Shown piece by piece: positions 2,392 to 36,147 of a stretch of DNA of 37,248 bases (the stretch's first letter is position 1; each line of letters begins with the position of its first letter). Under the pieces are notes generated by a model. The model saw nothing but the letters and a program-made list of their open reading frames with translations, had not been told where the DNA came from and ran no database searches. The stretch covers positions 1 through 37,248 of the forward strand of contig JAUCBJ010004012.1 in the NCBI GenBank assembly GCA_032718475.1, in the 5' to 3' direction. The stretch comes from Nemertoderma westbladi (taxonomy: Eukaryota > Animalia > Xenacoelomorpha). The position numbers were made by a program, and so were the translations under genes.

Positions 2392-2810
2392 GACCTGGCG
2401 GAGAATCCGTCGCTTTCCTTCTGTAATAAGGAAGTACCAGATCCGAGTTGGTACAGGCCACGGATTCCTTGTCTGAATAATCCTCACAAACATCGACAAT
2501 AATATCCTCAAATATGGAGTGATCCATCTTCTTCTTCGTCTTCAACTATAACATCCATCGGTTCGTCGTCGATACCAACTATCTTATCTTCAGGAATAAC
2601 TTTCCTCCCAGACACTCTATTAGTCTTTTCCTTCATAAAATCTGGGGGTTCTAGTGGCTTGGCTCTGAGTTCGTTAAAACCTAAAGACGTCAGCATCTCG
2701 AATTGTTCCTTCAAGGCCAACGATCGACGCCTATCAAAGATGCTCATTAATTCCCATTCGTTGTCGGTGAAATAGTGACGGATGGAATCGAACTCGGAAT
2801 CCATTGACAT
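2392..2810 (-). pseudogene. PRDM9: PRDM9-like gene, left copy, disrupted KRAB exon
   Basis: Near-identical to about 22616-23048 but lacks 14 bp between two TGATCCAT repeats, causing a frameshift and a stop at 2508. Homology ends abruptly at 2392 where an LTR begins. Confidence 0.82.
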
Positions 2811-3582
2811 CTCGAAGAGTTAATATATGATATAAAGTGATTTAAAAATACAATATACTATTACAATACAGTTTGAATTTTTGTTATTCTAAAAGTAGAA
2901 CATAAACTGCAAAACGAATATAATATATTCAGAGATACAGTACTGTAGTACAGTAGCTTGCTAAATTAAGCTATTGTATACGGTGGCTGAAAGCGGCTGT
3001 AGGATAGGTGTCATACGGGTCTGGTCTGGACGGAGTCTGTCGGTCTGTAAGTAGGTCGACGGTTAACGCTATAAAAATAAACTACCGGAAAATAAAAAAA
3101 ATTAACGGAAACAAACGCTCGTGATTGGCGGTTTCCAATGTGGGAATTTTGAAACTCACTACAGTTTTGTACGGTTGTTTAAGTGGTATTGTATATGCAG
3201 CACCCTGGTTTAGTGGTGACATTCCTGGTCTCCCAATCATTCCTAGCCCAAACCTGGCTTTCATCCTTATCTGGTGGATAAATGGGAAGTTATTGTGGAA
3301 GATCACCTATATTGGTGAACAGGCATTCCTTGGCTTAACGAGCCTAAAAGATTCTCCCATTCATTAAGTGGTAGTATTCACTTACAACATAAAGTTAATG
3401 TTTATTTTACTGTGTAATATACTTTATTTTACATTAATATCTGTCTGTACAATATATTTTCCGTAATTTTTCCTCTATTTTAAACATCAACCGAACAAAT
3501 ACAGAAATGTTGATTGCATTTGTACCGTTATGTAGTCATTTGAATATACTGTAGGATCAGGTGACTAAGTCAGGTAGGATAA

Positions 3583-4318
3583 CTACTACTATAATCGGCC
3601 TGCTGCATTTAAATTGCACATTGAGATGCTATGCCAGCTTAACAAAAACATATTCTCACCATCATGTAATCCACAATTGACAAGCCCAATTGAGCGTGCA
3701 TTAAGAATGCTATGCCAATCAAAGTTGCACCGCCACAACTCCCTATCCCCCATGAATATAAGGAGATTATTCACATTATTCAAAGGCCAGAGTCCTTTAG
3801 GAGGCGTTTCACGAAAGTCTCGGGCTGCCACCATGCTTATTCACTCCATGAGGACGCCAAAGCGCAAGATTATGCACTGGCTGGTTCTGACGGCGAAAGC
3901 AATGTCCTGCAAAGCGGGGGCGGTTCTGTTCAAGTGTCAAGCTAGGGGAGACTAATGAAACACCTCCAAGGTTGTATAGACTGATAGAAGCTACGGTTGG
4001 AGATGTGTTCATTGTACTTGACACAATGAGCTCAACACAGCATTATTGAGAAAGTGCGATCCAGAGATTTGGTGTCCGCAGTAGCAGTTAGAGCCCAGTT
4101 TGGACTCCCGTGCAGGATAAGAATACTGGTACTACTACAGCCATAATAAATAATCGAACCTTAAGTTTCCGTTTTATTCTATTGGACATCCAAATCATGT
4201 AGACTATTTTACGCCGCCCATGCCTTCCCTTTACATATCGGAAGGTCTGAAATTCGAATCCATAATCCCAAGTACCAGAAGTCATCCACGTGCTCAAGCA
4301 AGCCGTCCCTAGAGCTTA
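3583..4318 (-). mobile_element. RTE-clade LINE, decayed 3' fragment
   Basis: LEQNRPRFAGHCFRR...WRPHG and MGDRELWR C-terminal motifs with an (AGT)n tail. Confidence 0.75.
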
Positions 4319-4649
4319 AATGCCCCTTTCAAACAATGACCATAAAATGACTCAAACCACCCGATTAGTAGCCAGCTGCAAATGGGATGTAAAAATCACG
4401 AAAAAAACATCGTAATTATTCGAGGAATCGGAACAAAAGTGCGTGGTGGCATGAACAGAACATCGAAAATGAGCGGTAACATGAACAGAACACAACATCG
4501 AAAGTGCGCGCTAACACACACCACCGAAATACCGGTACGTGGTGATGTAAACATGAGTGGGCCTTTCGTGGAGCTGCGAACCAATAAAAAAACAATAATA
4601 TAAATTATTACAGTATGATACACCATACAAAAATATATAGCCCTATCTA

Positions 4650-5447
4650 GGGTATTAGTACGTTTGAACGACACTAGCCGAACAAGCCTGAAATCTGATA
4701 GAAACTGATAAAAATTGATACCTGTACAGCAGTATTGTTCACCATCTTCGGCACAATTCGGATATTGTATTATACTAATGGGCCTATTACTTTTATTGTT
4801 TATTGTGTTATTTATATTGTTACTTTTATTAATTATATTGTGTTGTATTGTATTTATACAAGAGCACTAGGCCTACTATTACTGTATTGGGCCTACTCTG
4901 TCTCTGTCATGACTGAATTTAATTTCATCGAGGTCGGTAAACTGATCGAGACTGGAGGAGTGTGTTATTGAATTTGCGCTATTGGGGAGCTTCTCTCCAG
5001 TACTCTACAACCAAATGGGCAACCAACCCTACGTCTTTGTCCTTTTCCAGGTTGTGCTGCACAATCCAAAGTTGTGCTTGTACAGTAATCTCCTTGCTTA
5101 TTTCAAGCATTACTACCGGTAGTACTGCTGTACTGAATGTCTACTCATGTCCAACTACTGTACGATATGATCTAACCAACCCAAACGGCTCTTTCTGTCT
5201 TTTCAGGGCCGCCATATCAGCATATGAAATATACAACCATGTCAGCATGTCGCAACAACGCGTGCAATCCAATAGGCCTATAAATTATATTAAAATAATA
5301 AATTCCCTTCCAAGAACTTAATAAATAATACCCGCGCAATCCTCAAGATTGCTCACAAATCACAATACTGCTATACCGGTACCGGTACCATGATTTATCT
5401 GATTTCAGGCTTGTTCGGCTAGTGTCGTCCAAACCTACTAATACCCC
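4650..5447. mobile_element. Non-autonomous TIR DNA transposon (~0.8 kb)
   Basis: ~50-bp TIRs GGGTATTAGTA...CTAGCCGAACAAGCCTGAAATC and GATTTCAGGCTTGTTCGGCTAG...TACTAATACCCC with TA flanks. Absent from the paralogous site near 26550. Confidence 0.75.
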
Positions 5448-5578
5448 TATGTAGCTAGCTCTCAGCTTACTGTATACCGGTAGGCCTAATTTAAAAAATT
5501 AAAATGTTATTTTATAGACTTAGGCCTACTGCCTACTGGTCATTATTCTAGAAATCAAACTTATGATAAATGAAACTA

Positions 5579-5785
5579 TAGGCCTACTACCAACTACCGT
5601 TATTTACGAATCTACCTACTGTCAGACCGTACAGGCAGACTATACGAGAAACACTATGGTACCGTACTACCGGTACCGGTAGGCCTACTACCAACTACCG
5701 TTATTTACGAATCTACCTACTGTCAGACCGTACAGGCAGACCATACGAGAAACACTACGGCAGTACGGTACCGTACTACCGGTAC
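5579..5785. repeat. ~100-bp tandem duplication
   Basis: TAGGCCTACTACCAACTACCG...GGTACC occurs twice here and once in the paralog (about 26685-26780). Confidence 0.8.
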
Positions 5786-6599
5786 CTAATGCAGTAATGC
5801 ATATCTGCATGTCGAAAGGGGAATGGTACTTAGTTAGAAAGTTTAACTTTATCGACTACCAGTACCGGTATCATACTAAAACTACAGTAAATGCCTGATG
5901 GGATGGGTTTTGCCTACAATAGTGAATTCCTTGCTTGTGTGCCTGACTGCCTGAATGTGTTGCAACAGAGTCTGTATTCAGAAAATGTTTCACTTTAGGG
6001 CCTACCGACTTTCATACTGCTACATGTACCGCCTATTACAGTATTATGATGTCAACGTCTACGAGTCTGCATGTGTAGAACTATAGCAGCCAAGTCTGTC
6101 TTCAGGAAATGTTTCACTTTCACATTTGCAACCTACAGTATTGTGACCAAGGACAAACTTGTCAGATATGTGCTAGAATATATCCTGTGTCTTTGTGGGG
6201 TCGGTAATCGCCACTAATCGGTATGCAGTTCTAGTTCCAGTTCTTCCCGCTAAAGGACGAAATGTATGAAATTGAAAACCTTCTCCCATTTCCGTCATTT
6301 TTAATTAGAATTAAAATTAATTTGAATCTTGGCATTGTTTGTACTATTGTATATACTAAAGCTTATCTTATTTCGTTTTGTTATAAGCATAATCATAATA
6401 TATAAATTTATATCGCGCCCTTTACGTAGTGGTCAAAGGCACACGTAACACATAATCTTAAAATTAATAAAAACCAATCACTGTATGAACTGAATTAAAA
6501 GAGTTAAAAACATAATTAAAAACACAACTGTAGACATGAGTTCACTTGAGAAACGTGAGATTATTATTCATGTTAAAAAAATGTAATTATAATCATTGG

Positions 6600-6905
6600 A
6601 ATTCCATTTTGAATAAATGAGTCTTTAATAGTTTCTTAAATATTTCTATCGAGGGAGATCGGCGAATGTTGATGGGAAGTGAGTTCCAAATTGTTGGTGC
6701 AGCTACCGCGAAAGAACGTTTACCATAGCTTGCAAGATTGAATTTAGGAACGCTAAGAAGGGTCAGTTCAGCGGAACGTAGTTCACGTTAGGCCGATGAT
6801 GTGAATACATTTATAGGTTATTAGCGCAATCTTGAAATCGATCCGGCATAGAATAGGTAGCCAATGCAATGTATCTCTTTCAACACCGGTGTAATGTGGT
6901 TCTCA
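6600..6905 (-). mobile_element. L2/CR1-group LINE 3' fragment
   Basis: The minus strand translates RELRS...LLSVPK...YGKRSFAVAAPTIWNSLPINIR...FKKLLKTHLF, preceded by HITPVLK and HWLP. Confidence 0.75.
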
Positions 6906-7165
6906 ATATCTGGTGGCCTCCAGTGTTGTATTATTTATCCCCAAGCAACTTTTTCTTGATAATAATAGATATCATATTTTATGCGATGGAGCGCTATTTT
7001 TTCATCATAACTTTTATGTAATTACAATCACGCAGCTAAGCCTGTAATCTGGTCTACTGTTTATTTTTTAGAGAGATGCCTCAGTTTACTTGTTATTGTG
7101 TTTTTTGATAACTAAATATATATAGAATTCATATAACTAAACTTTCAATTTGATTTAGAATTACC

Positions 7166-7360
7166 TTTGAAATATATTGCGGTTTTTTTGTAAAAATTCT
7201 GACTTATGGTGTTTTGCCAAAACAAAGGGGAACACCATTTTCTGGTATTATCCCGTAACTATACGATAGTTGCGGGGTATTGCCTAGAAAACAAGGTATC
7301 CTCAATTTGGCAAAACACCACAAGTCCGAATTTTTACAAAAAACACGCAACATATATCAA
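7166..7360. repeat. ~195-bp imperfect palindrome (hairpin MITE-like)
   Basis: Arms TTTGTAAAAATTC..GGTGTTTTGCCAAA and TTTGGCAAAACACC..GAATTTTTACAAA, centred on AACTAT-ACG-ATAGTT. Confidence 0.75.
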
Positions 7361-7419
7361 ATAATAGCCAAGGCGTATCGTGCGTCCTTAATTATTTAGT
7401 GCGTAGTGCGCACGTAATA

Positions 7420-8006
7420 GGATATATCTTTTTACAGAACACAGCAGAACACAGTAGAACACAGCAGAACACAATAGAATACAGGCGGAACATAGGAGAA
7501 CACAGCTGTAATTAAAATCTACACCAAAAAATAACACACTTTGGGAAAGTACCGGATTTAATCATACAACTGTAAGATGTCAATTACATATTTAAATTAA
7601 ATGGCGGTTTTCCATATCCTCCAAAATAAATTACTTCTCATTATCCTGTAACCATGGAGAGTTGGTTAGTTCTACAGCAGTACAGTACCGGTAGCTGAGT
7701 AGGCCTACATCAGTACTTTGGTAATATAATCTACACTGTGCCCGGTAATTGCCGGTAAATGCCTACATCTGTCTGTCTGTACAATGTACAGTCTGTCAGT
7801 CTGTACATGTCTCTACAGCACTAGGCCTACGGCAGTACTGGAACAGGCTGACAGGCAGACTGCTGGACTAGTAACAGGTACAGGCCTAACCGAACAGCTG
7901 ATCGGGCAACTCTGATCAGGTAATTTATTTTGGAGGATATGGAAAACCGTCATTTAATTTAAATATTGGTTCACGGTCTTTGACATAAGTGACCATTATT
8001 ACCGTA

Positions 8007-8056
<50 letters not shown>

Positions 8057-9834
8057 GGGTGTGGGGGTGTGTGTGTGTGTGTGTAGGGGTGTGGGGGTGT
8101 GTGTGTGTGTGTGTGTATCCAGAGCGATATCTCAGTTATTTATTAATCAATCGAAACAAAATTTGGACAAAAGTTAGATATAGGGATGGCGAAGGCTCAT
8201 ACAAAAAATTGGGTGTTGAGATGGTATTTGTGCGATGTGAGCGCTATATTTCAGTCAGGAACACTGGTCACAATATGTCCAATTTACAGCCAGAATTTGT
8301 CCGCGGAAAACGCTCTCAGAGTGAAATTTCTCCATAGAAAACAATGCTAAATTTCATTTAAAAACCGGCAGTGAAATTTTAACATTGGCATTCTAAAAAT
8401 TATGCCATTAGAATCGCCATAAAATTCTGTATAAATTAATTTGAGAATTAGAATCTCATCGTTGGGATAACTATCATAATATTAAAAATAAAAATGTGCC
8501 CAGCTTCTGCTTTGAGTACTAGTGGAGTTACAGCCAAAATATGTCCGGAAATATAATCGCAGCCTGTGAAGGACAAATAGTGGCTGCACGGACACTTTCT
8601 GGCTGTAAATATGTGGACAATTTTTGGCTGAGCTTCAGCCAGAAAGTGACCAGTGTTCCTAACTGTATTTGCGTGTTTTCGCATGGTTTAGGAAAAAGCT
8701 ATCTTGTCATAGGGAACGCAATGAATGATTCTGATATTTGGCATGGAGGTACCTGAATTATTTCTAAATCGATTAACGGAGGCCGATTTTTAAATTTGGA
8801 CCTACATTATGACCTAATTGAAGATTTAATTAAGGTAATTAGCATTAGCAATTACCAATACTGCAGTACCGGTACTGCAGTCCTGTAGGCCCTAGACTGC
8901 TAGTACTGTCTGATTGTCTGCCTGTAGTAGGCATACCGGACCGGTACTACCTGACCACTGTAGGCCTATCTGCCTATCTTCATACTGTCATAGGTCAGTA
9001 CAGCAGTAGGTCCTAGCCTAGCCCTAGCAGTAGATAGCTAACGGTACTTCTGACTGGCATAGCATTTCAGTTTATTATTATCCATCAGGTAGGCTATGCC
9101 TGGCTTAAATATAATATTTCGCCATGTTCGCAGGCGACTTCGTACTGACTACCGGTAGGCCTATGCAGCTACCGGTATGCTATGAGATTAACTGTCCAGT
9201 CGTTCAGATGCATATCTGCATATGGTACCGGTACCGGAACGGGTTACGGTTTAATCCTGCATTTGTCAATTACGACAATACCGGTACGACTTCATAGTAC
9301 CGCTGTACCGGTACGCGGTAGCCTACCGTTTCCGGTTGACCGGTAGGCGTAGGCAGTAGACCTACGGTGCGATGGTAGCCAGCCGGTAGGTGGTAGGCTT
9401 ACCGTACCGGTATAAATGTTGGCGGATGGCGGGATGACGTCGTGTGGCGCGTAATTACTTACCGGTTGCCGGTAGACGCCTACCCAACTCGTAACTCGTG
9501 GTCGTGGTGGGATGAGCATGAGGTCGTCTACGATGGGAACAAGTGAAAAGGAAACATAGGCCTACCCGAACGAAAACGTACCCGAATACTGGGTACGTTT
9601 CGACAATAATGTATCGGTTATTATTATTGTACTGATTAAGTAGGAGGACCGTGAACCCTCCAGGCTTGCCAGCTTGTGTAATTGACATCTTAAAGTTGTA
9701 TGATTAAGTCCGGTACTTTCCCAAGTGTGTTATTTTTTGGTGTAGATTTTAATTACAGCTGTGTTCGCCTATGTTCCGCCTGTATTCTATTGTGTTCTGC
9801 TGTGTTCTACTGTGTTCTGTAAAAAGAACTATCC
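7420..9834. mobile_element. Mutator-like (MULE) non-autonomous element with ~215-bp TIRs and a nested insertion
   Basis: Left TIR 7420-7633. The right TIR is split into 7920-7966 and 9678-9834. Flanking 9-bp TSD CACGTAATA (7411-7419) and CACGTAAAA (9835-9843). TIRs contain 10-bp AGAACACAG repeats. Confidence 0.8.
7967..9677 (+). mobile_element. Helentron/DINE-1-like non-autonomous rolling-circle element
   Basis: Asymmetric inverted repeats GGTTCACGGTC (7968-7978) and GACCGTGAACC (9647-9657), a 3' hairpin CAGGCT-TGCC-AGCTTG, a 5' (GT)n microsatellite (8008-8116) and no TSD. Removing it restores the host TIR. Confidence 0.68.
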
Positions 9835-10187
9835 CACGTAAAACATGTGCGCATTTGTTATTAGCTAATACCTGCTATCTAACATGTTAACTAGCACATG
9901 ATCAGGTGTTAGTATTACCTGTAAACGCAATAATAACAAATAATCACAAACAATATAGCTAACACACTTGCGCACATGGTGGAAATTTTTGAATTCTAAA
10001 TTCTAAAGTGCTCCATAAGTTTTTGATATTTTGGTATTAATTGCTTCTAAAATAAGTACGGGACTGTAGTTAGAATCATGTATCAATACAAATTGAACAA
10101 AATGTAGCCAAAGGCAGAACTATAAGAACAAAATTTAGATTCAAGAAAGCGGAACTTTAAGTACAAAATATAGTTTTTTCTACAGTA

Positions 10188-10395
10188 CGTGGCAACATTT
10201 TGAGCAACTCTATCAGCAACTTAATGAGCATGTCAGGTTGCCGATCAAGTTGCTCTATGTAAACGCGAAGTTTGTTGCTGTAAAAGATGCCTCATATAAC
10301 GGAGACTAAAAGTTAATGTTACTCAAATTACGTTGCTAGTTGCTGACCAAATTGTCCAAAACGTCCGGCAACCTAGAGTAACTTATAGCAACTTG
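10188..10395. mobile_element. Decayed relative of the Harbinger-type MITE at 11744
   Basis: Shares ACGTGGCAA...GAGCAACT...GGTTGCCGATCAAGTTGCTC...GTTGCTGTAAAAG. Confidence 0.55.
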
Positions 10396-10397
10396 GA

Positions 10398-10600
10398 TAC
10401 AAACATTAAATGAGGGACAGATATTTATCAGCGCCACAAACATTAATGTGTGACAAACATTAATCAGGGGGACAAACATTAATGTTGGCATAAACATTGA
10501 TGTAGGATACAAACATTAATGTGGGACATAAACATTGATAGGACACAAACAATAAACGAGAGACAGATATCAATCAAGGGCACAACCATTAATCATGGGC
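10398..10600. repeat. ~20-bp minisatellite
   Basis: About 10 degenerate copies of ACAAACATTAATGTGGGA(C/T). Confidence 0.75.
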
Positions 10601-17760: not shown

Positions 17761-18850
17761 TGTAAAAGAAGAGAGGCCATTATTGGAATATTACATAAGC
17801 TCGTGTCATTATATTTTCCTGGCAGTGTTCAAACCTCTACGGCAAACGCTCGAGTCTTACACCCCATAAACAAACAGCATAAACTACAAAAGAATGTATA
17901 GAATCAGGCAGGACATTAGGCCCTAGTATTATTTTCTAGCGTAGAATGCTAGCAGCTATAGGTTTTTCAACTATTTTACTTTTGTGGGTGACATTTATTT
18001 GTACAAGGGCCAGTTTCCAGTTTTGTACCTAGGTATGTTTCAATATAGTTCATGCGTTTAGAATGGTTAAAGGTGTAAGCGACGTGGTTGGTAGGTCCTT
18101 CACATAATTTTGTTTATGGAAGACACTGTTATTTTTCTGACTTCTCGCGAAAATTTGATAAAGACATTTGATTATGATACATTTTCGCGCCCAGTCTGGT
18201 ATGATTGTAAATCAAAAGAAAACTGAATTTCTTGCTGTGAATGGAACTACAGAGGATAAAAGAAAGGTCAAAATTGACGAAGTTACTGTAAATAATTGAG
18301 ATAGATATGTGAACTTGGGGTAAGTTATGTGACTACACCGATGATATGCGGTTTCAAGATTACGTTTAATCGGGTATTATAATCAATCATAATATGATCG
18401 ATGTTATCCCCCCCCCTAACACACTGACAACGTATTGCAATGTGTTACTATACTGTAGCGGGCACAAATGATAACTTCATATATAAATTACATAAATTAT
18501 ATTTTATTATTAATTAATTATTGATACTAAATTAAATAAGTTATACATTAGGTATAAATTAATATTCTAAAAGACCACTAGGTAGGTCGACCTTCCTTTA
18601 TCAGTTCCATTTGTTTGTTCCTACAATATTGTTGGATAGGGACTCCTAAATGGAAAAATATTTATAGTTCCGGTAGTAAAACTATAGAATTTTTATAGTA
18701 ACAACTATTACAAAATAAAATGTTGTTTCTTAATAAAACGAATCCTAATATAATTTATTTAGTCTATTCTTCCTTGAGGGAAAGAAGAAGTTCAGGTAAT
18801 TAAATCAGATCGAGAGACTAAAGACTTTCCTTCCCTCGATAAACAACAGT

Positions 18851-20778
18851 TTACTGATTCTTCACGCTGTGCTGGTTGCGTTTATGGGTCGATAGATTCG
18901 ATGTTTGGGAGAAAGATTTACCGCAAGTATCACAGATGTAGGGTTTATCTCCTGTGTGGATACGTTGGTGGGTTGTTAGACCGGCAATCTGGGTGAATGA
19001 TTTACTACAGACGTTACAACTGTAGGGTTTATCTCCAGTGTGAGTACGATTGTGTTCTATTAGATGGTCGTTCCGTGAGAAAGCTTTGTTGCACATAATA
19101 CATTGGAACGGTTTCTCGCCAGAGTGAGTGCGTCGGTGGGTTGTTAGACTGGACTGTGTGCTAAAAGCTTTACTACATGTAGAACAGCTGAACGGTTTCT
19201 CCCCGGAATGAGTGCGTCGGTGGCGTGTTAGACTGGACTGTGTGCTGAAAGCTTTACTACATGTAGAACAGCTGAACGGTTTCTCCCCGGAATGAGTGCG
19301 TCGGTGGCGTGTTAGACTGGACTGTGTGCTGAAAGCTTTACTACATGTAGAGCAGCTGAACGGTTTCTCACCAGAGTGAACCCTTTCGTGCTCCATTAGT
19401 TGGGATTTACATCCAAACACTTTCCCACAGGAACTACATCCCAAACTATCAACAGGTTTATCTAAACTGGAACGTTCCTTAGGACCAGTAGGAACGTTGG
19501 AACCCGAACCTGTTGGAATAGAACCGGGTTCCTTGTGTTTCCGTTTTAAATGGGAAACGAGAAAAGATTCTACCGTGTAGACAACGTCGCAATGTTCGCA
19601 CGGGAATTTAGGTAAACTCTTATCGTGAACTAAATCTAATCTCCTTCTCTCAGCACATCCACCTCGACTACTTTGGTGTCTAAGAGTTGCCTCCTGATTA
19701 TCGGACCGGTAACTTCCACACCCGGTACACAGAATCATCCCGTCTTCCAAAACTCTCATCCCCAATTTCTTATTCTTCGGTTGTTTGGTAATTAATCCCA
19801 ATTCCTCCGCGTATTCCGTTCCGTACCAAACAAGGAGTTCCGTACCGGCAGCAACTGGTTTACAGACCCGATAATACATATCCTCTCTGAACTGGAAAGC
19901 ACAAACTGTTTGTTCCTCCTCCCATTTGGCGCAGTTTACGAAGCGCATCCAATTAGACTTGTACTCCCATCTCCCGCTGACAGTAAAGAATTTACCCACA
20001 CCGTCCAACATCAACCAGCTGTAACCGTCAGACTTGCCGGGTTTAGGTTTACCAGGTTTCCTCTCTCCGCCATAAGGACCAAATAATGTTCCCGGATTCA
20101 ATTCGACCTTTGTAAACACTCCTTTATTATGAATCGGAGATTTCTTTATCTCCAAACACGAGGGAATTGTTCTGCTGCCCCGGTTCCTTCCTCCGCGAGT
20201 GGTTTCGGTATTCGGTACGAAGTTAAACTCCCCGTGTACCGGACACTGTAATTCATTATATTCCTCGCCGCAATTGTCGCAGAAAATAAAGTTGTTGAAT
20301 GATTTTATTGGGCAGTTGCGGTTGGCGTAATCGACCTCCTTTCTGGGACGTAAACCACATCGGGGTGCGAAAGGAGCCGTCGATTTAGGAGAGACGATGA
20401 CATTTAAATCCGACTCAACTGTAGAAGAACCCGAAATCTCTTCAACTATTTCTTCTCCCTCGGCTACTGAGGCCGGACTTCCCCCACTAGAAGTCCATCC
20501 CGCTCCCGAACCAAAGCGTCCCAAACTGTTAGCGAGTTTATCGTTAACCGATTCCTCGGCACTCGGTACAGATGGACCAACAGTATCCGAGTGTCTACCG
20601 GAACTGACGTCATCCAACAGATCGATCGCTGTATCAGATTGATTCACATCGGGAATACCCAGCTGTCCTTTTATTTCCTCGATGGAATCAGTTGTAACGA
20701 TAAACGATGGCGAATTAAGACCTCCCGTTTCCCTGATAATATCGGTCGGAGATAAAGTTACTGAGTTCCCTTCTGTGG
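18851..20778 (-). CDS. PRDM9: PRDM9-like gene, central copy, exon 2: SSXRD-like motif, zinc knuckle, PR/SET methyltransferase, post-SET finger and 7 tandem C2H2 fingers
   Basis: ORF 18851..20647 stays open upstream to 20794 when translated by hand. Motifs: GLRPRKEVDY (SSXRD-like), FCDNCGEEYNELQCPVHG (knuckle), FGPYGG...SNWMRFVNCA...EEQ...MYYRVC...ELLVWYGTEYAEELG (PR/SET), CEHC...HLKRKH, then 7 fingers with (S/T)G(E/D)KP linkers. Candidate acceptors TTTCAG|20778 and CCACAG|20772 are both phase 1. Confidence 0.88.
18869..19440 (-). repeat. 84-bp coding minisatellite (7-finger array)
   Basis: Three near-identical 84-bp CSTC-type units at about 19110-19365, plus four distinct finger types. Confidence 0.9.
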
Positions 20779-22486
20779 CTGAAAGCGGCCATGTTTAATT
20801 AATTACTAATTTATAGAAGTTTTAATTGGTTATTAATATTGTCACATATTCAAATATTATTCATAGATATATTGATTGATTGAATGAATATTAGCATATC
20901 TCGAGATGCACATTATTTTTGGGAACTTATTTATGATGCAAAATATACCAAATCTCTAGAAGTTTCAAACTTGGTATTATCATGCCGAGTTAATAAAAGT
21001 TGGTGTAATCGCCCACTCTGAGCAAGCAGGTAGTTTCATTTAGGCTATTAACCCTAGATGGCCCGGGCTAATTTACTACCCGGTACGTAGGCTACTGTAA
21101 TTGGCCCGGGGGGGGGGGGGGGGGGTCATTTTAGACAATTGTTAAATCTTTGTCTCAAAAATTCAAATTTTCAAGGTATAAGAGTTTTCAAGATCGTTGA
21201 TCACGATAATGCTAAAAATATTTTCTGGCGATTCAACCATCATTGTTAGTGAGCTATTTTGGTCCCCCAGGATGAAAGGTACAAGTAAAAAAATGTCAAA
21301 CTAAAAAATGTTGTGTTTGGTTTGATAATTCTGAACGTATACGGGTTTTCGAGGTCGTTAATCACGAAAAAACTAGTTATAAATATTGCTGGTAAATGAA
21401 AACCAAATTTTGAAAATTAAAGAGAAGTACAAGTAGTAAAAAATAGCAAAATGCCTTTGGTTTGGCAATTCTGAAGCTATACAGGTGTTCAAGGTCGCTG
21501 ATCACGATAGAACTCGTTAAAAATCATTCGAGGTAACGCAACAATCGTTTTGTTGAATTTCTCCAAATTAAATTCATATCGAGAAAAGTCATTTTGAAAT
21601 TACCAATTGAGGGAAAGGAACAGTTTATATAGGTTGTACTTTCTAACAAAAATAATAAACAAATATCATTAAAAATTAATAAAAATGAGTCTAGGTTACA
21701 GTGTCAGCATACTACAATATATAAATTATGGATGTGCCGGATATCCGGCCGGATTTTGAGAAAAAATCCGCTTCCGGCTCCGGCTCCGACCGGATTTCAA
21801 TTTTTTCGCCGGATTTCAATTTCAACGAATTGTTGCCAAAATTTACAATTAATGTAAATTTTCAAAAAAAAACATCAAACTAAGTTTTACTTTAAATTAA
21901 AACAAATTTAAACATAAACAAATACAATGTAATACAATTAATTATTTTAATTTTAATTATTATTATCGTTTTTGGTTGAAAGTGAATTAAATTTGGGTAG
22001 AAATAATTATATTTTGGGTGCCGGTTTGAGTAATTTAATTATTTTTGGGATCGCCGAGATATTTAAATTGGGGGATGTTAATTGTTGGGGCTATTAAAGA
22101 ACATTAATCAAACATAACGGGAAATAATAGCAGCAAACTATATGGCAGAAATTGTGGAAGGGGGAGTTTACCAATTAATTATGCTAAATTAATTAATAAA
22201 TGCTGAAGGTAATTAATTACCGATCCGGAAATATAATAGATAAATAACTGTTTGAACTATTACCGGTATGTATTGCTTTTTTACACAATATATAGCGGGA
22301 AGAAATGTTTAAGAAGATTCCGTCCTACTGTGATTGGCCATGACTGAAGCTTTTCCCCAATAATTTTCCCTCAATAAAAACTAGCGCGATTCTGTAATGA
22401 GTAAAATTTATGTTGAGATAAATAATATATCTCGGTGAAATATATAAAAACAAAATTATTTAATTACTATGGCCGTTTTCAACCAC
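20779..22486 (-). other. Predicted ~1.7 kb GT-AG intron whose termini are inverted repeats of each other
   Basis: On the minus strand it begins GTGGTTGAAAACGGCCAT and the 3' junction reads ATGGCCGCTTTCAG|CCACAG. Splicing gives a continuous 2490-nt CDS. The donor is a weak match to GTRAGT and the exact sites are uncertain by 3-6 nt. Confidence 0.65.
21175..21520. repeat. Degenerate ~150-bp tandem repeat (3 units) within the intron
   Basis: TTC(A/G)AG(G/A)TCG(C/T)T(G/A)ATCACGA recurs near 21190, 21350 and 21490. Confidence 0.55.
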
Positions 22487-23048
22487 CGTGATTCTCTCCA
22501 GTGATAGACTCTGTTTCATTCACGTCGTTCATGTGAAAATCGAAACTTCCTTCTGCGCTCAGATAACTGCCACTTCCCTCGCTACGATCGATGTTGTCGC
22601 TGTACCATTCATACGGACCTGGCGGAGAATCCGTCGCTTTCCTTCTGTAATAAGGAAGTACCAGATCCGAGTTGGTACAGGCCACGGATTCCTTGTCTGA
22701 ATCATCCTCACAAACATCGACAATAATATCCTCAAATATGGAGTGATCCATAGAGATTGATCCATCTTCTTCTTCGTCTTCAACTATAACATCCATCGGT
22801 TCGTCGTCGATACCAACTATCTTATCTTCAGGAATAACTTCCCTCCCAGACACTCTATTAGTCTTTTCCTTCATAAAATCTGGGGGTTCTATTGGCTTGT
22901 CTCTGAGTTCGTTAAAACCTAAAGACGTCAGCATCTCGAATTGTTCCTTCAAGGCCAACGATCGACGCCTATCAAAGATGCTCATTAACTCCCATTCGTT
23001 GTCGGTGAAATAGTGACGGATGGAATCGAACTCGGAATCCATTGACAT
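22487..23048 (-). CDS. PRDM9: PRDM9-like gene, central copy, exon 1: ancestral KRAB domain plus acidic linker
   Basis: FDSIRHYFTDNEWELMSIFDRRRSLALKEQFEMLTSLGF...PPDFM matches the PRDM9/SSX KRAB pattern F..I..YF...EW..M....K.R.......Y......G....P.FM. Candidate donors CACG|GT (22486) and GGTG|GT (22483) are both phase 1, matching the exon 2 acceptors. Confidence 0.82.
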
Positions 23049-23291: not shown

Positions 23292-24983
23292 TACTACTAC
23301 TAGGATCGGCATGGTGCATTGCAGCTGCATTTCAAGAATGCCGTGCCGGCTTGTCAACAAAATTGCACCGCCACACCTCCCTATCACCCATGATATTTGC
23401 TAGATCATCCGCATCTTCAAGGCCAGTGTCCTTTAAGATGCGTCTGTCCCAAGAAAGTCATGGGCTGTCCACCATGCTTATTCACTCCATGAGGCTGCCA
23501 AAGTACAAGATAAGCACTGGCTGGATCTCACGGCGAAAGCAATGTCCTGCAAAGCGGAGGCGATTTTGTTCTAGTGTCAAGCTTGGGGGAACCAATGAGA
23601 TACCTCCAATGTTACTTGTGACCACTGGGTCCACTATGAGTCCATAGCTTTCCAGTTCGCTTCTTGAACTGGGTTCCAGCCGAAAACAATCCATTTCCAG
23701 AGATAAAATCCTGAAGATGGACAGAATTTCGGTTAACACTATTGCTATAGACCCAGGGCGATGTAGGTGATTGGTGTAGACTTGCATTAAAGTCTCCACG
23801 GAATGTTAAGAATGCATGCTGATCCACTCCATCAGTAGCTGCTTGTAGATTGTGGTAGAAATTTTCCACCTCCTCTACAGGGGCAACACTAGTTGGAGAG
23901 TAGCACACAATCAGAACCACCTTAGGAAACTTCTTAGCCAGTCTTCCAGAACATGAGAAGTGGCAACGGATGATGCGGTTAGAGATTTGCTCTATTTTGT
24001 CCAATGCTGCATGTGCAGTTGGATTCATCAATAGACCAATTCCACCATTGCCACTATCATCTGCTGACGCGAGGGCGAGTCGCCAACCGCCCCCCATGTC
24101 CTTAATCAGAACCTCATCAGTCTGTCCAGTCTGCATTCGGTGCTCTTGAACACCCACTGCGATAAGAGAAAGCTTATCTGCCAAGGCAGTCAGCTCACCT
24201 TGTCGCATTGGGGACCCGAGTGTTAGGGTGTTTACTGAGGCTAGTCTAGTGACTTGCCTCTGATTCACCAATGGCTTTGTTGGTCGGGGTGGAACATGAG
24301 AGTAGCCTCCAACTCCAGAATCCCTCTCCCATCACAATCTGGCCTCCCTGGTGACCCAGGGTGTGGGCCAGAAAGGTCATCAGGAAAGGGGCTCCAAGAA
24401 TTGTTGGCTGCTCTCTCTCCAGTAGGGGGTGAGACAGGCAGCCGGTCAGGAGTTAACTGACGCCTGTGAGGCCGATTGTGTCCGGTAATTCCACTGGCCT
24501 CTAGTGGCCTGACCTCCGCATTACTAATGTAATCCATAGTGGGGGTTGGGGGGTGCTTTTTTGCCGAGTCAGCTCTCGGGGCAAATACCACACCCTGGTT
24601 TGCCATTCCACAGGGTGGGTGTCGCAATGAAGTCAGATATGAGGCCCATCACCCTTATCTACTCTGGCGCACATGACCCACCATTTGCTGTTGCAGCTCA
24701 TCTGCTGGGTCATGCCCTGTACCCTTGCTGCCAGGTGCAGGTCGCAGTGAAGTGCTCTCAGAGTGGACCTGAGAACACTCTACTCCTGACAAGCCATTGG
24801 TAGATCACCATCTGCCTGGTCAGGCCATATACCCCTGCAGCCAAGTATATGGGTCCTTAATCCAGGACCAAGGGCGTCCTTATCCCAGAACGATGGGGGT
24901 CCTAGTTACAGGACCAGATTTGCCCTAGTAAGAGGGTCTATGCAGCTACAGGTGGCACCTCCTTTATGCTGCATGGAGGTGGC
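23292..24983 (-). mobile_element. Internally deleted RTE LINE (5' leader, APE domain, 3' end; no RT)
   Basis: 12-bp TSD AAGTAGGTCGAC (23280-23291 and 24984-24995) with the empty site at 3049-3060. APE motifs VQEHR, GGIGLL, VCYSPT and GDFNA join near 23612 to RLRFAGH and an (AGT)n tail. Confidence 0.88.
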
Positions 24984-25014
24984 AAGTAGGTCGACGGTTA
25001 ACGCTATAAAAATA

Positions 25015-27184: not shown

Positions 27185-27245
27185 TACTACTAGGATCGGC
27201 ATGCTGCATTGCAGCTGCATTTTGAAGAATGCTGTGCCGGCTTGA
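27185..27245 (-). mobile_element. Very short RTE 3' end at the duplication boundary
   Basis: TACTACTAGGATCGGCATGCTGCATTGCAGCTGCAT matches the other RTE tails. Confidence 0.7.
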
Positions 27246-27326
27246 CTTTAATAATAAAGTCGCGACTAAAATAATAAAGTCGCGACTTTAATATTAAAGT
27301 CGCGACTTTAATAATGGAGTCGCGAC
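27244..27326. repeat. 20-bp tandem repeat (4 units) with palindromic core
   Basis: TTAATAATAAAGTCGCGACT units; AAAGTCGCGACTTT is a perfect palindrome. Confidence 0.85.
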
Positions 27327-27438
27327 AATATTCGTGAATATATGGCATGAAATTTGGGACGAATATAATTAGCGAATAAAAATACAAAATGTATGCCATA
27401 AAAGACATTATTCCTCCACATGTCACGTAGTACATCAG

Positions 27439-30400: not shown

Positions 30401-31710
30401 AATAACGCAGAAATAAAAATCATTAAACATTCACAAGAACAACACTTTGTGGAAGAATTAAAATATCTATACAACCCTAAAGTCGAAAGGTGTACAAACC
30501 TGGTTAAACAATTCAATTTATTTCTAGATACAGAAAATGAATTGATTCGCGCCAAGGGACGTGTGTGTCACTCAGTTATACCTTGGCACACACAGAATCC
30601 AATTATGTTGCCAGCCGGCGACCAATTTACACGTTTACTAGTCTTACAGGCACACTCAAGAGTAATGCATTCAAGAGTACGTGATACTCTGGCAGAAATC
30701 CGCGAGAAATTTTGGATTCCTCGTGGTAGACAAGTGATAGCAAAAATAATACGCAATTGCGTAATATGCAAACATGTGCAAGGAACGGCATATGCATGCA
30801 TCGCCATAAACTAGTCCTCTACCCATTGAACGGATCGACAGTGATTCGCTTCCATTTTATCATACCGGTATAGACTTTTGTGGACCACTAAACTTTGTAA
30901 AAAACACTAGAAATTCATCATGAATTAACAAAGGTTCATATTTGTCTTTTTACTTGTGCAGTAATATACGTGCAGTTCCTATGGAACTTGTTCCTAATTT
31001 AAGTGTGAGTTCGTTTCAAAATGCATTCAGTTGATTCATAGGACGCAGGGGCGTCCCATCAATGATCTTTTCCGATAATGCATCAACCTTTAAACGATCG
31101 TCTAAGGAATTCAAGGTATTCAAGAAACTTGTTGACAACGAGATTGTCAAACGTGAATTTGGGGAATTGAAAATATATCGTAACTTTAATATAGAACGTT
31201 TTCCTGCTGCATACGGATTTATCGAAAGATGCGTAGGAATAATTAAACAATGTTTACGAAAGGTTATGGGGAGAGCAGTACTCACAATAGAGGAAATGCA
31301 AACGTTGTTGGTCTCATGCGAAGCAGCGGTAAATAGTAGACCTTTGACATTCATATGTTAGCAATAATGAAAATGCTCTCACTTTATCACCAAGTCATTT
31401 CCTTGTCGGTCGTAGGCTTTGTGCTCTCCCATCACCTTCAGTTAGAAACACAAATTTAGAATTTAAACCGCGCAAACCTCATAAATAGAGTTCGCTACCA
31501 TGAAATTGCAGTGAATTGTTACTGGAACTCATTTCGAGATGACTATTTAGAGGAGTTACGAAATCGTCACCAAAATTCAAACATTACTTCTCAAGGTCAC
31601 ACGTCCCAAAAATTGGTCAAGTTTGTATACTCCACGACTCAAAAATTCCACAAGTCGAATCGATGCCCCATTACAAAGTCAAGTGACATCTATATCATCA
31701 AAACTTAACA
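27439..31710 (+). mobile_element. Decayed BEL/Pao LTR retrotransposon (end of gag, protease, RT, RNase H, integrase)
   Basis: CYTC..H....C and CYKC...HH..IC knuckles, LFDPGSERTFI, PRHGVIKE..TTKLRVVFNASA, YVDD, YDPLG, LHGFSDAS, NPADMPTRG, HHCC region, GIDFCGP (about 30868) and FSDNASTF. Many frameshifts; LTRs not identified. Confidence 0.9.
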
Positions 31711-32199
31711 CGTCAACAAACAAATTAAACGATATTCCGGACAAGAATATCGAATCCAAACCAATCATATGCCGGTAAACCGTCGACAGAATCTAACCCA
31801 ATCAGACTTCTGCGAAAGGCAAAAACAAGTAAAAATGTGGGTTTTTACAAGGTGTGAGGGGAGATAAAATCGCTGCCAAATAATGGCTTGGGTGACGCGT
31901 TAGCACATGTACATGTACAGTAGAGGGAGAGTCATTCATAATTTCGTATCATAAACTGTAAAAAATTAGTATCGATTGACTATAGATTATAGTCAAGGGG
32001 CGGTGTAGTATAATTTATTGTAGAACTGAGAAAGCAATGTGTAGGTACATACAGTAGTACTATTACTATAGAAGCTTATCACTAATTCATTTGTGATCGT
32101 GCCAATGCCAATATTAATTAATCGCGGTGTGTTTTGGTCATAATTGCACTAGTAACTAAACATATGTTTCACCGTCAACAGTAGACAAAATGTTGTTGA

Positions 32200-33153
32200 A
32201 CCATCGTATACTGATCTGATTGCTGCAATAATTTCATCAGGAATCCCATATAATGAAAGTATGCTGAACATACGTGAGCGAGAGATTGAATCAAGGGCCT
32301 TGAAGAAGTCAACAAAGATAACAGTCCTGTCTTTCTTTTTTGATAACTCTTCAATTATCCTTCTCTAAGTGTCAAAATGGGCTCCATGGTCCCATGACCT
32401 TTACGGAACCCATTCTGATTTCCACGGAGCAGTCTCTCAATGGGATCCCTGATGCGATTTAATATAATTATATTGTATAGCTTTGCAGCAAAGCTTAGCA
32501 ACCTCTGCTGCATTGCAGCTGCATTAGATATATATTACATATATATGTAATTGTCTTGGTGACAAAATTGCGCCGCCACAACTCCCTATCACTCATGACA
32601 TTTGCTAGATCATCCGCATCTTCAAGGCTAGTAGTGTCCTTTACGATGCGTCTTAAGAAAGTCATGGGCTGTCCACCATGCTTATTCACTCCATGAGGCT
32701 GCCAAAGCAAAAGATTATGCACTGGCTGGTCCTCACGGCGAAAATAATGTCCTGCAAAGCGTTGGCGTTTCCGTTCAAGTGTCAAGCTAGGGGAGATTAA
32801 TGGAACACCTCCAATATTGTATGGAGTCAGATTGGAGATGTGTTCATAGTACTTGACACAATAAACCCGGCGCAGCATTCTTGTGAATGTGTGATCGAGA
32901 GATTTGGTATCCCCTGCAGTCAGAGTCCAGCTTGGACTTCCATAAGAGTACTGGTACTACTGCTGCCATAAATAATCGAACCTTAAGGTTCCGTTTTATT
33001 CTATGGGACTTCCAAATCCTTGTCGGACTGGACTATTTAACGCTGCCCATGCCTTCCCCTTACGTATCCGTAGGTTTTCACCTGACTTTCTGATCCATGA
33101 TCCCAATTAGCAGAAGTCATTCACGTGCTCAAGCCAGCCGTCCTTAGAGCTTA
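32200..33153 (-). mobile_element. Two abutting RTE LINE fragments (RT N-terminal part and 3' end)
   Basis: About 32200-32495 reads AKLYN..ILNRIRDPIE.LLR.NQNGFR. About 32500-33153 reads RQRFAGH...DRELWR. Confidence 0.75.
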
Positions 33154-33367
33154 TGCCCTTCCGATCAGACATTTATAAAGGGCCGCCTACTGTAGGTTGA
33201 CTGTCATGATTTTGGTCTTCTTTGAATTTACAAAAAGATCAACACTAAAGCAACCTGCTCCAATGAGCAAAGGAACCTTTGGGCTCCCTCTAGTGATTCT
33301 GACAGTACCCCTATGTTTGCTGCGCAGCCCAGGTCAGGTCAGGTATTCTAGGTCATTGATCAAGAAA

Positions 33368-33580
33368 ACTTGCCACCTCCATGCAGCATAAAGGAGGTGC
33401 CACCTGTAGCTGCATAGACCCTCTTACTAGGACAAATCTGGTCCTGTAACTAGGACCCCCTTCGTTCTGGGATAAGGACGCCCTTGGTCCTGGATTAAGG
33501 ACCCATATACTTGGCTGCAGGGGTATATGGCCTGGCCAGGCAGATGGTGATCTACCAATGGCTGGTCAGGAGTAGAGTGT
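33368..33580 (+). mobile_element. 5' end fragment of the same RTE family
   Basis: Near-identical reverse complement of about 24755-24987. Confidence 0.8.
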
Positions 33581-34306
33581 AGTCCTACCACACTCCGCCC
33601 AAACAACCGCAAACGCATAGCCAACAAATTTAACAAAAGGTTACATACATGTTGGGTTCATGACGAGATGAGTGAAAATTGATCGCGTAATATAAAGTAA
33701 AAAATTAAGAGACGGGCTGGCTCTCCTCCACTTTCTTACCCAATGGATATGTTGTTGTAATAATCTAATATTGGGGCGGCTTTCTCTCGTTACTGCGGCA
33801 ATGGAGGATGATAATTACCAGGAACTCATTACCTCAATTAAGGAACATACAATATCAGTATCAGCTAATGAATATGTAAGACTTTTTCGCCACTGTTCCA
33901 ATGAAATGTCTCTAGGCACAAATGATAACTTCATAAATAAATTACACAAATTATATTTTATTATTAATTAATTATTGATACTAAATTAAATAAGTTATAC
34001 ATTAGGTATAAATTAATATTCTAAAAGACCACTAGGTAGGTCGACCTTCCTTTATCAGTTCCATTTGTTTGTTCCTACAATATTGTTGGATAGGGCCTCC
34101 TAAGTGAAAAAATATTTATAGTTCCGGTAGTAAAACTACAGAATTTTTATAGTAACAACTATTACAAAATAAAATGTTGTTTCTTAATAAAACGAATCCT
34201 AATATAATTTATTTAGTCTATTCTTCCTTGTGGGAAAGAAGAAGTTCAGGTAATTAATCAGATCGAGAGACTAGAGACTTTCCTTCCCTCGATAAACAAC
34301 AGTTTA

Positions 34307-36147
34307 CTAATTCTTCACGCTGTGCTGGTTGCGTTTATGCTTCGCTAGATGCGATGTTTGGGAGAAAGATTTACCACAAGTATCACAGATGTAGGGTTTA
34401 TCTCCTGTGTGGATACGTTGGTGGGTTGTTAGATGGGCAATCTGGGTGAATGATTTACTACAGACGTTACAACTGTAGGGTTTATCTCCTGTGTGGATAC
34501 GTTGGTGGGTTGTAAGATGGGAACTGTTGGTGAATGATTTACTACAGACGTTACAACTGTAGGGTTTATCTCCAGTGTGAGTACGATTGTGTTTTATTAG
34601 AGAGCCGTTCTCTGAGAAAGCTTTGTTGCACATAATACATTGGAACGGTTTCTCGCCAGAGTGAGTGCGTCGGTGGGTTGTTAGATGGGACTGTCGGCTG
34701 AAAGCTTTACTACATGTAGAGCAGCTGAACGGTTTCTCACCAGAGTGAACCCGTTCGTGCTCCATTAGTTGGGATTTATATCCAAACACTTTCCCACAGG
34801 AACTACATCCCAAACTATCAACAGGTTTATCTGAACTGGAACGTTTCTTGGGACCACTGGGAACGTTGGAACTCGAACCTGCTGGGGTAGAACCGGGTTC
34901 ATTGTGTTTCCGTTTTAAATGGGAAACGAGAAAAGATTCCACGTTGTAGACGACGTCGCAATGTTCGCACGGGTATTTATGTAAACTCTTATCGTGAACT
35001 AAATCTAATCTCCTTCTCTCAGCACATCCACCTCGACTACTTTGGTGTCTAAGAATTGCCTCCTTATTATCGGACCGGTAACTTCCACACCCGGTACACA
35101 GAATCATCCCGTCTTCCAAAACTCTCATCCCCAATTTCTTATTCTTCGGTTGTTTGGTAATTAATCCCAATTCCTCCGCGTATTCCGTTCCGTACCAAAC
35201 AAGGAGTTCCGTACCGGCAGCAACTGGTTTACAGACCCGATAATACATATCCTCTCTGAACTGGAAAGCACAAACTGTTTGTTCCTCCTCCCATTTGGCG
35301 CAGTTTACGAAGCGCATCCAATTAGACTTGAACTCCCATCTCCCGCTGACAGTAAAGAATTTACCCACACCGTCCAACATCAACCAGCTGTAACCGTCAG
35401 ACTTGCCGGGTTTAGGTTTACCAGGTTTCCTCTCTCCGCCATAAGGCCCAAATAATGTTCCCGGATTCAATTCGACCTTTGTAAACACTCCTTTATTATG
35501 AATCTGAGATTTCTTTATCTCCAAACACGAGGGAATTGTTCTGCTGCCCCGGTTCCTTCCTCCACGAGTGGTTTCGGTATTCGGTACGAAGTTAAACTCC
35601 CCATGTACCGGACACTGTAAGTCACTATATTCCTCGCTGCAATGGTCGCAGAAAATAAAGTTGTTGAATGATTTTATTGGGCAGTTGCGGTTGGCGTAAT
35701 CGACCTCCTTTCTGGGTCGTAAACCACATCGGGGTTCGAAAGGAGCCATCGATTTAGGAGAGACGATGACATTTAAATCCGACTCAACTGTAGAAGAACC
35801 CGAAATCTCTTCAACTATTTCTTCTCCCTCGGCTACTGAGGCCGGACTTCCCCCACTAGAAGTCCATCCCGCTCCCGAACCAACGCGTCCCAAACTGTTA
35901 GCGAGTTTATCGTTAACCGATTCCTCGGCACTCGGTACAGATGGACCAACAGTATCCGAGTGTCTACCGGAACTGACGTCATCCAACAGATCGATCGCTG
36001 TATCAGATCGATTCACATCGGGAATACATGCCAGCTGTTCTTTTATTTCCTCGATGGAATCAGTTGTAACGATAAACGATGGCGAAATAACACCTGTTTC
36101 CCTGATAATATCGGTCGGAGATAAAGTTACTAAGTTCAATTCTGTGG
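34307..36147 (-). CDS. PRDM9: PRDM9-like gene, right copy, exon 2: PR/SET plus 6 tandem C2H2 fingers; KRAB exon not in window
   Basis: The 610-aa ORF is nearly identical to the central copy outside the array. It has the same acceptor motif (36142-36161), the same phase and only frame-preserving indels. The stop is one codon earlier (CAG>TAG). Confidence 0.86.
34325..34810 (-). repeat. 84-bp coding minisatellite (6-finger array)
   Basis: Two near-identical CNVC-type units, plus four other finger types. Confidence 0.9.

What the first reader, a model, noticed from the sequence alone, without database searches (positions are those of the whole stretch)
2392..36147. Young tandem array of KRAB-SSXRD-SET-ZF PRDM9 paralogs with distinct finger arrays
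Seen: three same-strand copies 15-20 kb apart with high identity, one apparently complete, one with an intact exon 2 and one disrupted. Established: KRAB, SSXRD, knuckle, PR/SET and a ZF array make up the full PRDM9 architecture that positions meiotic hotspots in mammals and some other vertebrates, where the gene is usually single or low copy. Inference: in this probable invertebrate the gene is undergoing birth-and-death expansion. That could mean a multi-gene hotspot-specification system, or a KRAB-ZFP-like system targeting transposons through a methyltransferase.
Basis: partly seen in the sequence, partly recalled or inferred. Interest (0 to 1): 0.85.

Follow-up and report, generated by a model that had tools for sequence, protein, structure and literature searches.

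The report
Intron-poor PRDM9 gene, recently multiplied
An unidentified animal carries side-by-side young copies of the recombination gene PRDM9 in an unusual, likely two-exon form, and the two copies with zinc fingers differ almost only at the positions that read DNA, so the family likely marks different sets of genome sites; several young PRDM9 copies are already known from corals and their kin, so this is a variant of a known pattern.

Summary
There are three minus-strand units: C (exon 2 only), B (whole; predicted 785 aa, two exons) and A (exon 1 only, 14-nt frameshift). Identity is 97-99%.

Family: ancestral KRAB, zinc knuckle, a PR/SET domain closest to PRDM9 by sequence and fold, and the three catalytic tyrosines place it in PRDM7/9. 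The SET-only tree is inconclusive.

- Only two finger arrays are in view.
- SSXRD has lost its acidic half.
- The array is not PRDM9's homogenised minisatellite (contact-site diversity share 0.21-0.31).
- Several young full-length PRDM9 copies are already reported in 10 of 28 cnidarians.

New here:
- SSXRD-knuckle-SET-fingers is one unbroken frame, and KRAB is one exon (likely retro-derived).
- Matched fingers of B and C differ at DNA-contact residues in 10 of 11 changes (p=4e-9).
- Contig depths in public DNA runs hint at about 10-20 copies.

A single-gene haplotig join cannot give this exon order. Best reading (0.5): a birth-and-death PRDM9 family still marking recombination sites, renewing specificity between copies. 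Splicing, expression and function are untested.

The parts
2391..2810 (-). Copy A exon 1 (ancestral KRAB). A 14-nt deletion near 2528 shifts the frame, with a stop at 2508-2510 after 100 codons. Similarity to B ends at about 2384. Likely pseudogene or KRAB-only fragment.
2811..6219 (-). Upstream flank of copy A, shared with B (23049-23291 and 24984-27184); interrupted at 4650-5446 by an inverted-repeat element absent from B
18461..18850 (-). 3' flank of B shared with C (33915-34306), with AATAAA at 18759 and 18508
18851..20778 (-). Copy B exon 2 (acceptor inferred): linker, SSXRD-like core, knuckle, PR/SET, post-SET fingers and tandem array in one unbroken frame
18869..19438 (-). Copy B tandem C2H2 array, 7 fingers; contacts (-1,2,3,6) CSQE TSSR TSSR TSST RDHE QAGT QSNT
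19796..20155 (-). Copy B PR/SET domain, with tyrosines aligned to the PRDM9 FGPY, FY and VWY motifs (human Y276, Y341, Y357; numbering recalled)
20230..20284 (-). Copy B pre-SET zinc knuckle (lower end approximate)
20327..20356 (-). Copy B SSXRD-like basic core; the acidic second half is absent
20779..22618 (-). Predicted single intron of B, 1840 bp, GT-AG, phase 1; inferred, no RNA
22619..23048 (-). Copy B exon 1 with uninterrupted ancestral KRAB (about 22857-23030). The frame runs on past the predicted donor to a stop at 22479.
23292..24995 (-). 1704-bp LINE-like insertion upstream of B with a 12-bp target-site duplication; empty site in copy A and in contigs of three runs (X1, X3, X4)
34307..36147 (-). 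Copy C exon 2, intact frame, same acceptor motif as B; its exon 1 is not in the window
34322..34807 (-). Copy C tandem C2H2 array, 6 fingers; contacts YSQE RSHT EGSK NSHT QAHT QSHK

Best explanation
This is a PRDM7/9-family gene that lacks the introns found inside these domains in other animals, likely through reverse transcription, and was then multiplied by recent DNA duplication into a birth-and-death cluster whose copies likely still mark meiotic recombination sites, each predicted to read a different DNA motif. Shown: domain content, one unbroken SSXRD-to-finger frame, shared flanks and transposon fragments between copies (so the recent copies are DNA duplications), one frameshifted copy, finger gain and loss, and amino-acid change concentrated at contact residues. 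Inferred: exon 1 splices to exon 2 to give a 785-aa protein; the fingers bind a motif; the SET domain trimethylates H3K4/H3K36 nearby; this recruits the break machinery; bound motifs erode by gene conversion; and that favours copies or alleles with new contact residues. Here renewal would happen between gene copies (or between alleles placed in tandem by unequal crossover) rather than by homogenising one minisatellite.
For: aKRAB profile from 30 homologues hits both exon 1s at E 2e-9 and 9e-9; next best of 898 segments is 0.3. PDB sequence scores: PRDM9 117-120 bits, PRDM11 101, other PRDMs 58 or less. Foldseek's top six chains are PRDM9. All three catalytic tyrosines are kept in B and C, and SET has fewer replacement changes than the rest of exon 2 (2 of 284 vs 28 of 742 sites, p=0.006). 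In five backbone-matched finger pairs, 10 of 20 contact codons change amino acid vs 1 of 118 others (p=4e-9); the backbone is under purifying selection (p=0.009). The best-scoring donor and the first acceptor are both phase 1 and give an open 785-aa frame. 18 of 25 listed array variants in public DNA runs match C's letters, so the differences are not assembly errors. Hotspot erosion is the established cause of contact-residue selection in PRDM9 (PMC5519329, PMC6116924).
Against: The within-array signature of hotspot-directing PRDM9 is missing. Contact share of diversity is 0.242 (B) and 0.209 (C), or 0.312 and 0.239 without the first finger. Of 39 aKRAB-bearing homologues (median 0.421) only 1 is below 0.242 and none below 0.209. 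Backbone identity is 0.61 and 0.51, against a minimum of 0.62. Complete vertebrate PRDM9s score 0.331 or more. SSXRD scores 5.2 bits against a median of 43 for the 72 training homologues, with no acidic residue in the last 13 positions (median 6). dN/dS outside the array is about 0.7, not significantly below 1 (p=0.46). Within contact codons alone, replacement vs silent is p=0.086. The SET lies on a long branch and the AU test does not reject placement outside PRDM9 (p=0.31). The donor motif is weak and unverified.
Confidence: 0.5

Rival explanations
1. The family has left recombination and acts as diversifying sequence-specific chromatin regulators, like KRAB- or FiNZ-zinc-finger clusters. 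It would bind young transposons or germline gene sets, with its own SET domain as effector (as nematode SET-17 promotes spermatocyte transcription).
For: A heterogeneous array, single-finger duplications and paralogue divergence at contact residues is the pattern of KZNF and FiNZ families (PMC10547256 passages). SSXRD is half lost. The region is rich in young transposons. SET-17 is a PRDM9/7-type SET with a transcriptional role (PMC5942854 abstract).
Against: The PRDM9-type KRAB appears not to bind TRIM28, and its KRAB-SSXRD region shows no repression (PMC6116924 passages). The intact SET is predicted to write activating marks. No binding or expression data exist.
Confidence: 0.27
2. The amplification is transient and mostly neutral. 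One working PRDM9 was swept up in segmental duplications of a repeat-rich region, most copies are redundant or decaying, and the finger differences are relics of old alleles.
For: A is frameshifted, and transposons sit next to B and C. dN/dS outside the array is near 0.7. Public runs are dominated by C-like letters, with only 7 of 25 listed array variants new to the window. Cnidarian full-length duplicates are short-lived.
Against: B and C both keep 1.8-1.9 kb open frames, catalytic tyrosines and finger backbones. The contact bias needs selection at some point.
Confidence: 0.18
3. The tandem arrangement is an assembly artefact of haplotypes of a single-copy gene.
For: 1-3% divergence is within the allelic range of heterozygous invertebrates (general knowledge). 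No listed contig spans the array. No whole genome is held.
Against: The order along the strand is exon 2, exon 1, exon 2, exon 1, which two alleles of one gene cannot give. The two spacers share little beyond the flanks and transposon pieces. Gene contigs in three runs are about ten or more times deeper than diverged or low-copy contigs.
Confidence: 0.05

Closest known systems
Cnidarian multi-copy full-length PRDM9 (bioRxiv 10.64898/2026.09.07.749791; parts 1-6 of 7 of the text read, supplements not seen)
   Same: Recent, partly same-scaffold duplicates with four domains, catalytic tyrosines, different finger numbers and truncated copies; birth-and-death.
   Different: There KRAB and SET each span two exons, and SSXRD and the fingers have their own exons; at most 4 full-length copies; contact share 0.29-1.0. 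Here there are likely two exons, possibly 10-20 copies, a contact share of 0.21-0.31 and a degenerate SSXRD.
Vertebrate hotspot-directing PRDM9 (PMC5519329 passages and section 10 part 1; PMC6116924 and PMC11600626 passages)
   Same: aKRAB, knuckle, PR/SET fold and tyrosines, post-SET finger, terminal C2H2 array with fast change at -1, 2, 3, 6.
   Different: Vertebrate arrays are near-perfect 84-bp repeats and PR/SET spans three exons. Here fingers average 61-66% DNA identity and SET has no intron.
KRAB-zinc-finger and cyprinid FiNZ-zinc-finger clusters (PMC10547256 passages)
   Same: Young paralogues with heterogeneous arrays diverging at base-contacting residues.
   Different: Those carry no SET and silence through co-repressors. 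These copies carry an intact PRDM9-type SET and an ancestral KRAB.
C. elegans SET-17 (PMC5942854 abstract)
   Same: PRDM9/7-type SET; a filarial SET-17 falls in the same unresolved part of the tree.
   Different: The filarial SET-17 fetched is 252 aa with no aKRAB hit; the worm protein acts in spermatocyte transcription.

Membership tests
PRDM7/9 subfamily | PR/SET domain closest to PRDM9 by sequence and fold | tested here: met
PRDM7/9 subfamily | SET groups with PRDM9 in a tree | tested here: inconclusive
   Inside a 44-row branch (SH-aLRT 97) with 32 of 35 aKRAB-bearing rows in the quick tree; unresolved in the careful tree, AU p=0.31. Only PRDM1, 11 and 14 were available as outgroups.
PRDM7/9 subfamily | N-terminal ancestral KRAB | tested here: met
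   Custom profile E 2e-9 and 9e-9. Pfam KRAB gave no hit, but it is listed for only 11 of 82 homologues. Linkage to exon 2 by splicing is inferred.
PRDM7/9 subfamily | Pre-SET zinc knuckle and post-SET finger | tested here: met
Full-length hotspot-directing PRDM9 | Intact SSXRD | tested here: not met
   Basic core is in place (6 of 1000 shuffles reach its score) but the acidic half is absent; 5.2 bits vs a lowest training score of 9.2
Full-length hotspot-directing PRDM9 | Three catalytic tyrosines | tested here: met
   residue numbering recalled
Full-length hotspot-directing PRDM9 | Homogenised array with high within-array contact-site diversity share | tested here: not met
   0.21-0.31; at or near the bottom of 39 homologues
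Full-length hotspot-directing PRDM9 | Rapid change of contact residues between alleles or copies | tested here: met
   10 of 11 changes, p=4e-9; two copies only
Full-length hotspot-directing PRDM9 | Meiotic expression, H3K4me3/H3K36me3 activity, hotspot binding, ZCWPW1/2 in the genome | not testable with these tools
   No genome held; no reads or assays available
Canonical KRAB-ZFP repressors | Modern TRIM28-binding KRAB and no SET | tested here: not met
   KRAB is of the PRDM9 type and a SET is present
Retro-derived gene | Joint absence of several ancestral introns | tested here: met
   One frame from SSXRD to the stop, and KRAB unbroken, against the exon structures
Retro-derived gene | Poly(A) remnant, target-site duplication, or intron-rich parent in the same genome | tested here: inconclusive
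   No poly(A) tract in the roughly 470 nt read after the stops; one intron remains; a parent cannot be searched for

The most novel reading that the evidence does not exclude
A retro-derived, two-exon PRDM9 has expanded to ten or more working copies that renew DNA-binding specificity across paralogues instead of within one minisatellite. That would be a multi-gene hotspot code, or a zinc-finger family that tracks selfish DNA with its own histone methyltransferase.
Probability: 0.3. Interest if true: 0.8.

Novelty: new variant of a known kind. Interest (0 to 1): 0.5.

Why it matters
Whether PRDM9 positions recombination outside vertebrates is open, and the usual screen for function is the within-array diversity statistic. 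This family fails that screen yet shows very strong contact-residue divergence between copies, so it tests whether the statistic misses working genes. If ten or more copies are active, it is a natural test of PRDM9 dosage and of Red Queen turnover spread over paralogues. It also resembles the step from PRDM9 to multi-copy KRAB-zinc-finger families with the enzyme still attached. The compact SET-plus-finger exon makes each copy easy to clone and assay.

Tried and rejected
Genome-wide copy count and ZCWPW1/2 search: impossible, no genome is held.

Expression: no RNA holder listed; this is no evidence either way.

KRAB and SSXRD searches: Pfam gave no KRAB or SSXRD hit. A homologue search with exon 1 among longer proteins gave 0 of 237 candidates. 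A first short SSXRD profile from 23 homologues found nothing in the window.

Organism: not identified. The best relatives reach only about 46% identity over the SET region. The top five scores come from proteins with repeated SET domains. The beetle and butterfly neighbours in the FastTree are weakly supported long branches, and that tree also misplaced PRDM14, so I set it aside. The careful mixture-model tree did not finish.

Population variants: 17 of 25 listed array variants fall in contact codons, but I rejected this as independent proof of selection because 18 of 25 repeat copy C's letters. Only 40 of 76 rows were shown. The 252-nt skip in the array may simply be the C type and was not counted.

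Other checks: no Rfam match and no tRNA. I considered carriage by one large transposon; I found no element termini enclosing a whole unit, but searched inverted repeats only in 1-18500 and by self-BLAST.

Literature for an intronless or retro-derived PRDM9: searches (1 paper; 15 of 22 listed; 13; 11 of 12 listed) showed none by title or abstract start. The library holds open-licence papers only, and the cnidarian preprint's supplements were not seen.
Full report
Observation. Self-comparison and ORF listing show three minus-strand units. In the direction of transcription they are: exon 2 of copy C (frame 36163-34307), the upstream flank and exon 1 of B (ATG 23048), exon 2 of B (20794-18851), about 12 kb of transposon-rich spacer, and the upstream flank and exon 1 of A (ATG 2810). 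Identities are 98.8% for exon 1, 97.2% for exon 2 outside the array and 96-98% for flanks. A has a 14-nt deletion and stops after 100 codons. tblastn finds no exon 2 below 2384 and no exon 1 above 36200; these parts are off the window or lost.

Family. The knuckle-SET region scores 117-120 bits against PRDM9 structures, 101 against PRDM11 and at most 58 against the other ten of 14 matched PDB sequences. An AlphaFold model (mean pLDDT 81.9, 45 sequences) has PRDM9 chains as its six best Foldseek matches, the best at rmsd 2.5. The tyrosines of the FGPY, FY and VWY motifs are kept in both copies; their human numbering (276, 341, 357) is recalled and matches the preprint's list. Exon 1 carries an ancestral KRAB. 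Pfam misses it, but a profile from 30 homologues finds both copies at E below 1e-8, with the next best of 898 segments at 0.3. Trees help less. The quick 68-row tree nests the pair among aKRAB-bearing PRDM9s (SH-aLRT 97). The careful 36-row tree leaves copy B unresolved on a long branch, and an AU test does not reject grouping with PRDM1/11/14 (p=0.31). Membership rests on KRAB plus best hits. The organism is an unidentified animal.

Gene structure. Linker, SSXRD-like motif, knuckle, SET, post-SET fingers and array form one unbroken frame, and KRAB is unbroken too. In cnidarians KRAB and SET each span two exons, and SSXRD and the fingers have their own. In teleosts and mammals PR/SET spans three exons (PMC11600626 passage). 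Joint loss of these introns suggests a reverse-transcribed intermediate (inference). Unchecked earlier notes describe multi-exon genes elsewhere in this genome. The best-scoring donor in exon 1 (22618) and the first acceptor (20778) are both phase 1 and give an open 785-aa frame with a 1840-bp intron. This is unverified, and the exon-1 frame also runs on to its own stop. Shared upstream flanks with shared transposon fragments show that the recent copies are DNA duplications.

Departures from hotspot PRDM9. SSXRD keeps its basic core but none of the acidic residues before the knuckle; 71 of 72 homologues have two or more. The array is heterogeneous. Fingers average 61-66% DNA identity, and the share of diversity at contact sites is 0.242 and 0.209 (0.312 and 0.239 without the first finger). 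Only 1 of 39 aKRAB-bearing homologues is below 0.242; PRDM1 controls give 0.19. Complete vertebrate genes score at least 0.331 and cnidarian ones 0.29-1.0.

Selection between copies. I paired fingers by backbone identity with contact codons masked (97-100%), which gave five pairs; B3, B4 and C5 are extra duplicates and were left out. Ten of 20 contact codons change amino acid against 1 of 118 others (p=3.8e-9). One pair has an identical backbone and all four contacts changed. Contact replacement rate (15 of 46 sites) far exceeds the silent rate in exon 2 (18 of 400; p=4e-8), though not significantly the silent rate within contact codons (p=0.086). The backbone is constrained (p=0.009), SET has few replacements (p=0.006), and the non-array part as a whole is not significantly constrained (p=0.46). 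This rests on two copies.

Copy number and artefact. Four public DNA runs (three samples at most) hold the region. In X1 a SET contig with one difference has depth 350, while six diverged contigs have 7-45 and a 1426-nt low-copy contig has 17. In X3 the 3' flank has 1012 against 34-96 for three diverged contigs. In X2 the flank has 229 against 20-29. The tool warns that such depths are not copy numbers; I take them as a hint of roughly 10-20 near-identical copies plus older ones at about 85-90% identity. 18 of 25 listed array variants equal C's letters, which confirms them outside this assembly; 7 are new, 2 of them replacements at contact sites. Some B letters are absent from X1's contigs and a minority in X2 and X3 (for example 19057 and 18985), so finger sets may vary between individuals. 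An X4 contig covers B's exon 1 and 360 nt of the intron and lacks the 1704-bp insertion. The order exon 2, exon 1, exon 2, exon 1 cannot come from two alleles of one gene, but no listed contig spans the array.

Mechanism. Best reading (0.5): copies are germline H3K4/H3K36 methyltransferases that mark recombination sites, and motif erosion favours new contact residues, renewed across copies or tandemly captured alleles. Domain content and the selection pattern are shown; splicing, expression, activity and hotspot role are inferred. Rivals are a diversifying regulator or transposon-binding family (0.27), transient neutral amplification (0.18) and artefact (0.05).

Known context and verdict. Multiple young full-length PRDM9 paralogues are reported in 10 of 28 cnidarians (bioRxiv 10.64898/2026.09.07.749791, parts 1-6 of 7 read). 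Prdm7/9 is an ancient subfamily (PMC4760075 passages), and full-length genes occur in termites (PMC12047536 passages). PMC8835667 was seen only as a search listing. So the expansion itself is a known kind. I found no intron-poor PRDM9. It belongs to PRDM7/9, but I do not file it as a canonical hotspot-directing PRDM9, because two defining features were tested and not met. Verdict: new variant of a known kind, interest 0.5.

Noticed in passing
window 27245-32560 (+): Broken BEL/Pao LTR retrotransposon (zf-CCHC, Peptidase_A17 and integrase zinc-binding hits) inserted into a LINE end; the empty site is common in all four runs. No LTR pair seen.
   Followed up: partly
window 14865-17311 (-): Fragmented LINE with an RVT_1 hit
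   Followed up: partly
window 4650-5446, 7420-9834, 7588-7966: Non-autonomous elements with terminal inverted repeats, the third nested in the second; the first is absent from B's matching flank
   Followed up: no
window about 35747-35749 (-): Copy C has an in-frame Met (residue 139 of the frame) just before the SSXRD-like motif, absent in B, so C could encode a KRAB-less SET-finger protein
   Followed up: no
window about 19650-19730 (-) and the matching part of C: A second, atypical post-SET finger-like motif (C..C...H...C) precedes the usual proximal finger
   Followed up: no
proteins P0084 (Priapulus), P0087 (Physella), P0001 (Lethenteron): Annotated proteins hold repeated SET-finger or KRAB units, suggesting merged tandem PRDM9 clusters in other animals
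   Followed up: no
proteins P0016, P0024, P0029, P0031, P0054, P0066, P0071 (thrips); P0136 (Artemia): Several aKRAB-bearing PRDM9-like proteins in thrips, and an aKRAB hit in an Artemia protein named set-17-like; the beetle and butterfly PRDM9-like proteins fetched had no aKRAB hit
   Followed up: no
window 5579-5766: 101-bp tandem duplication in A's upstream flank, single in B
   Followed up: no
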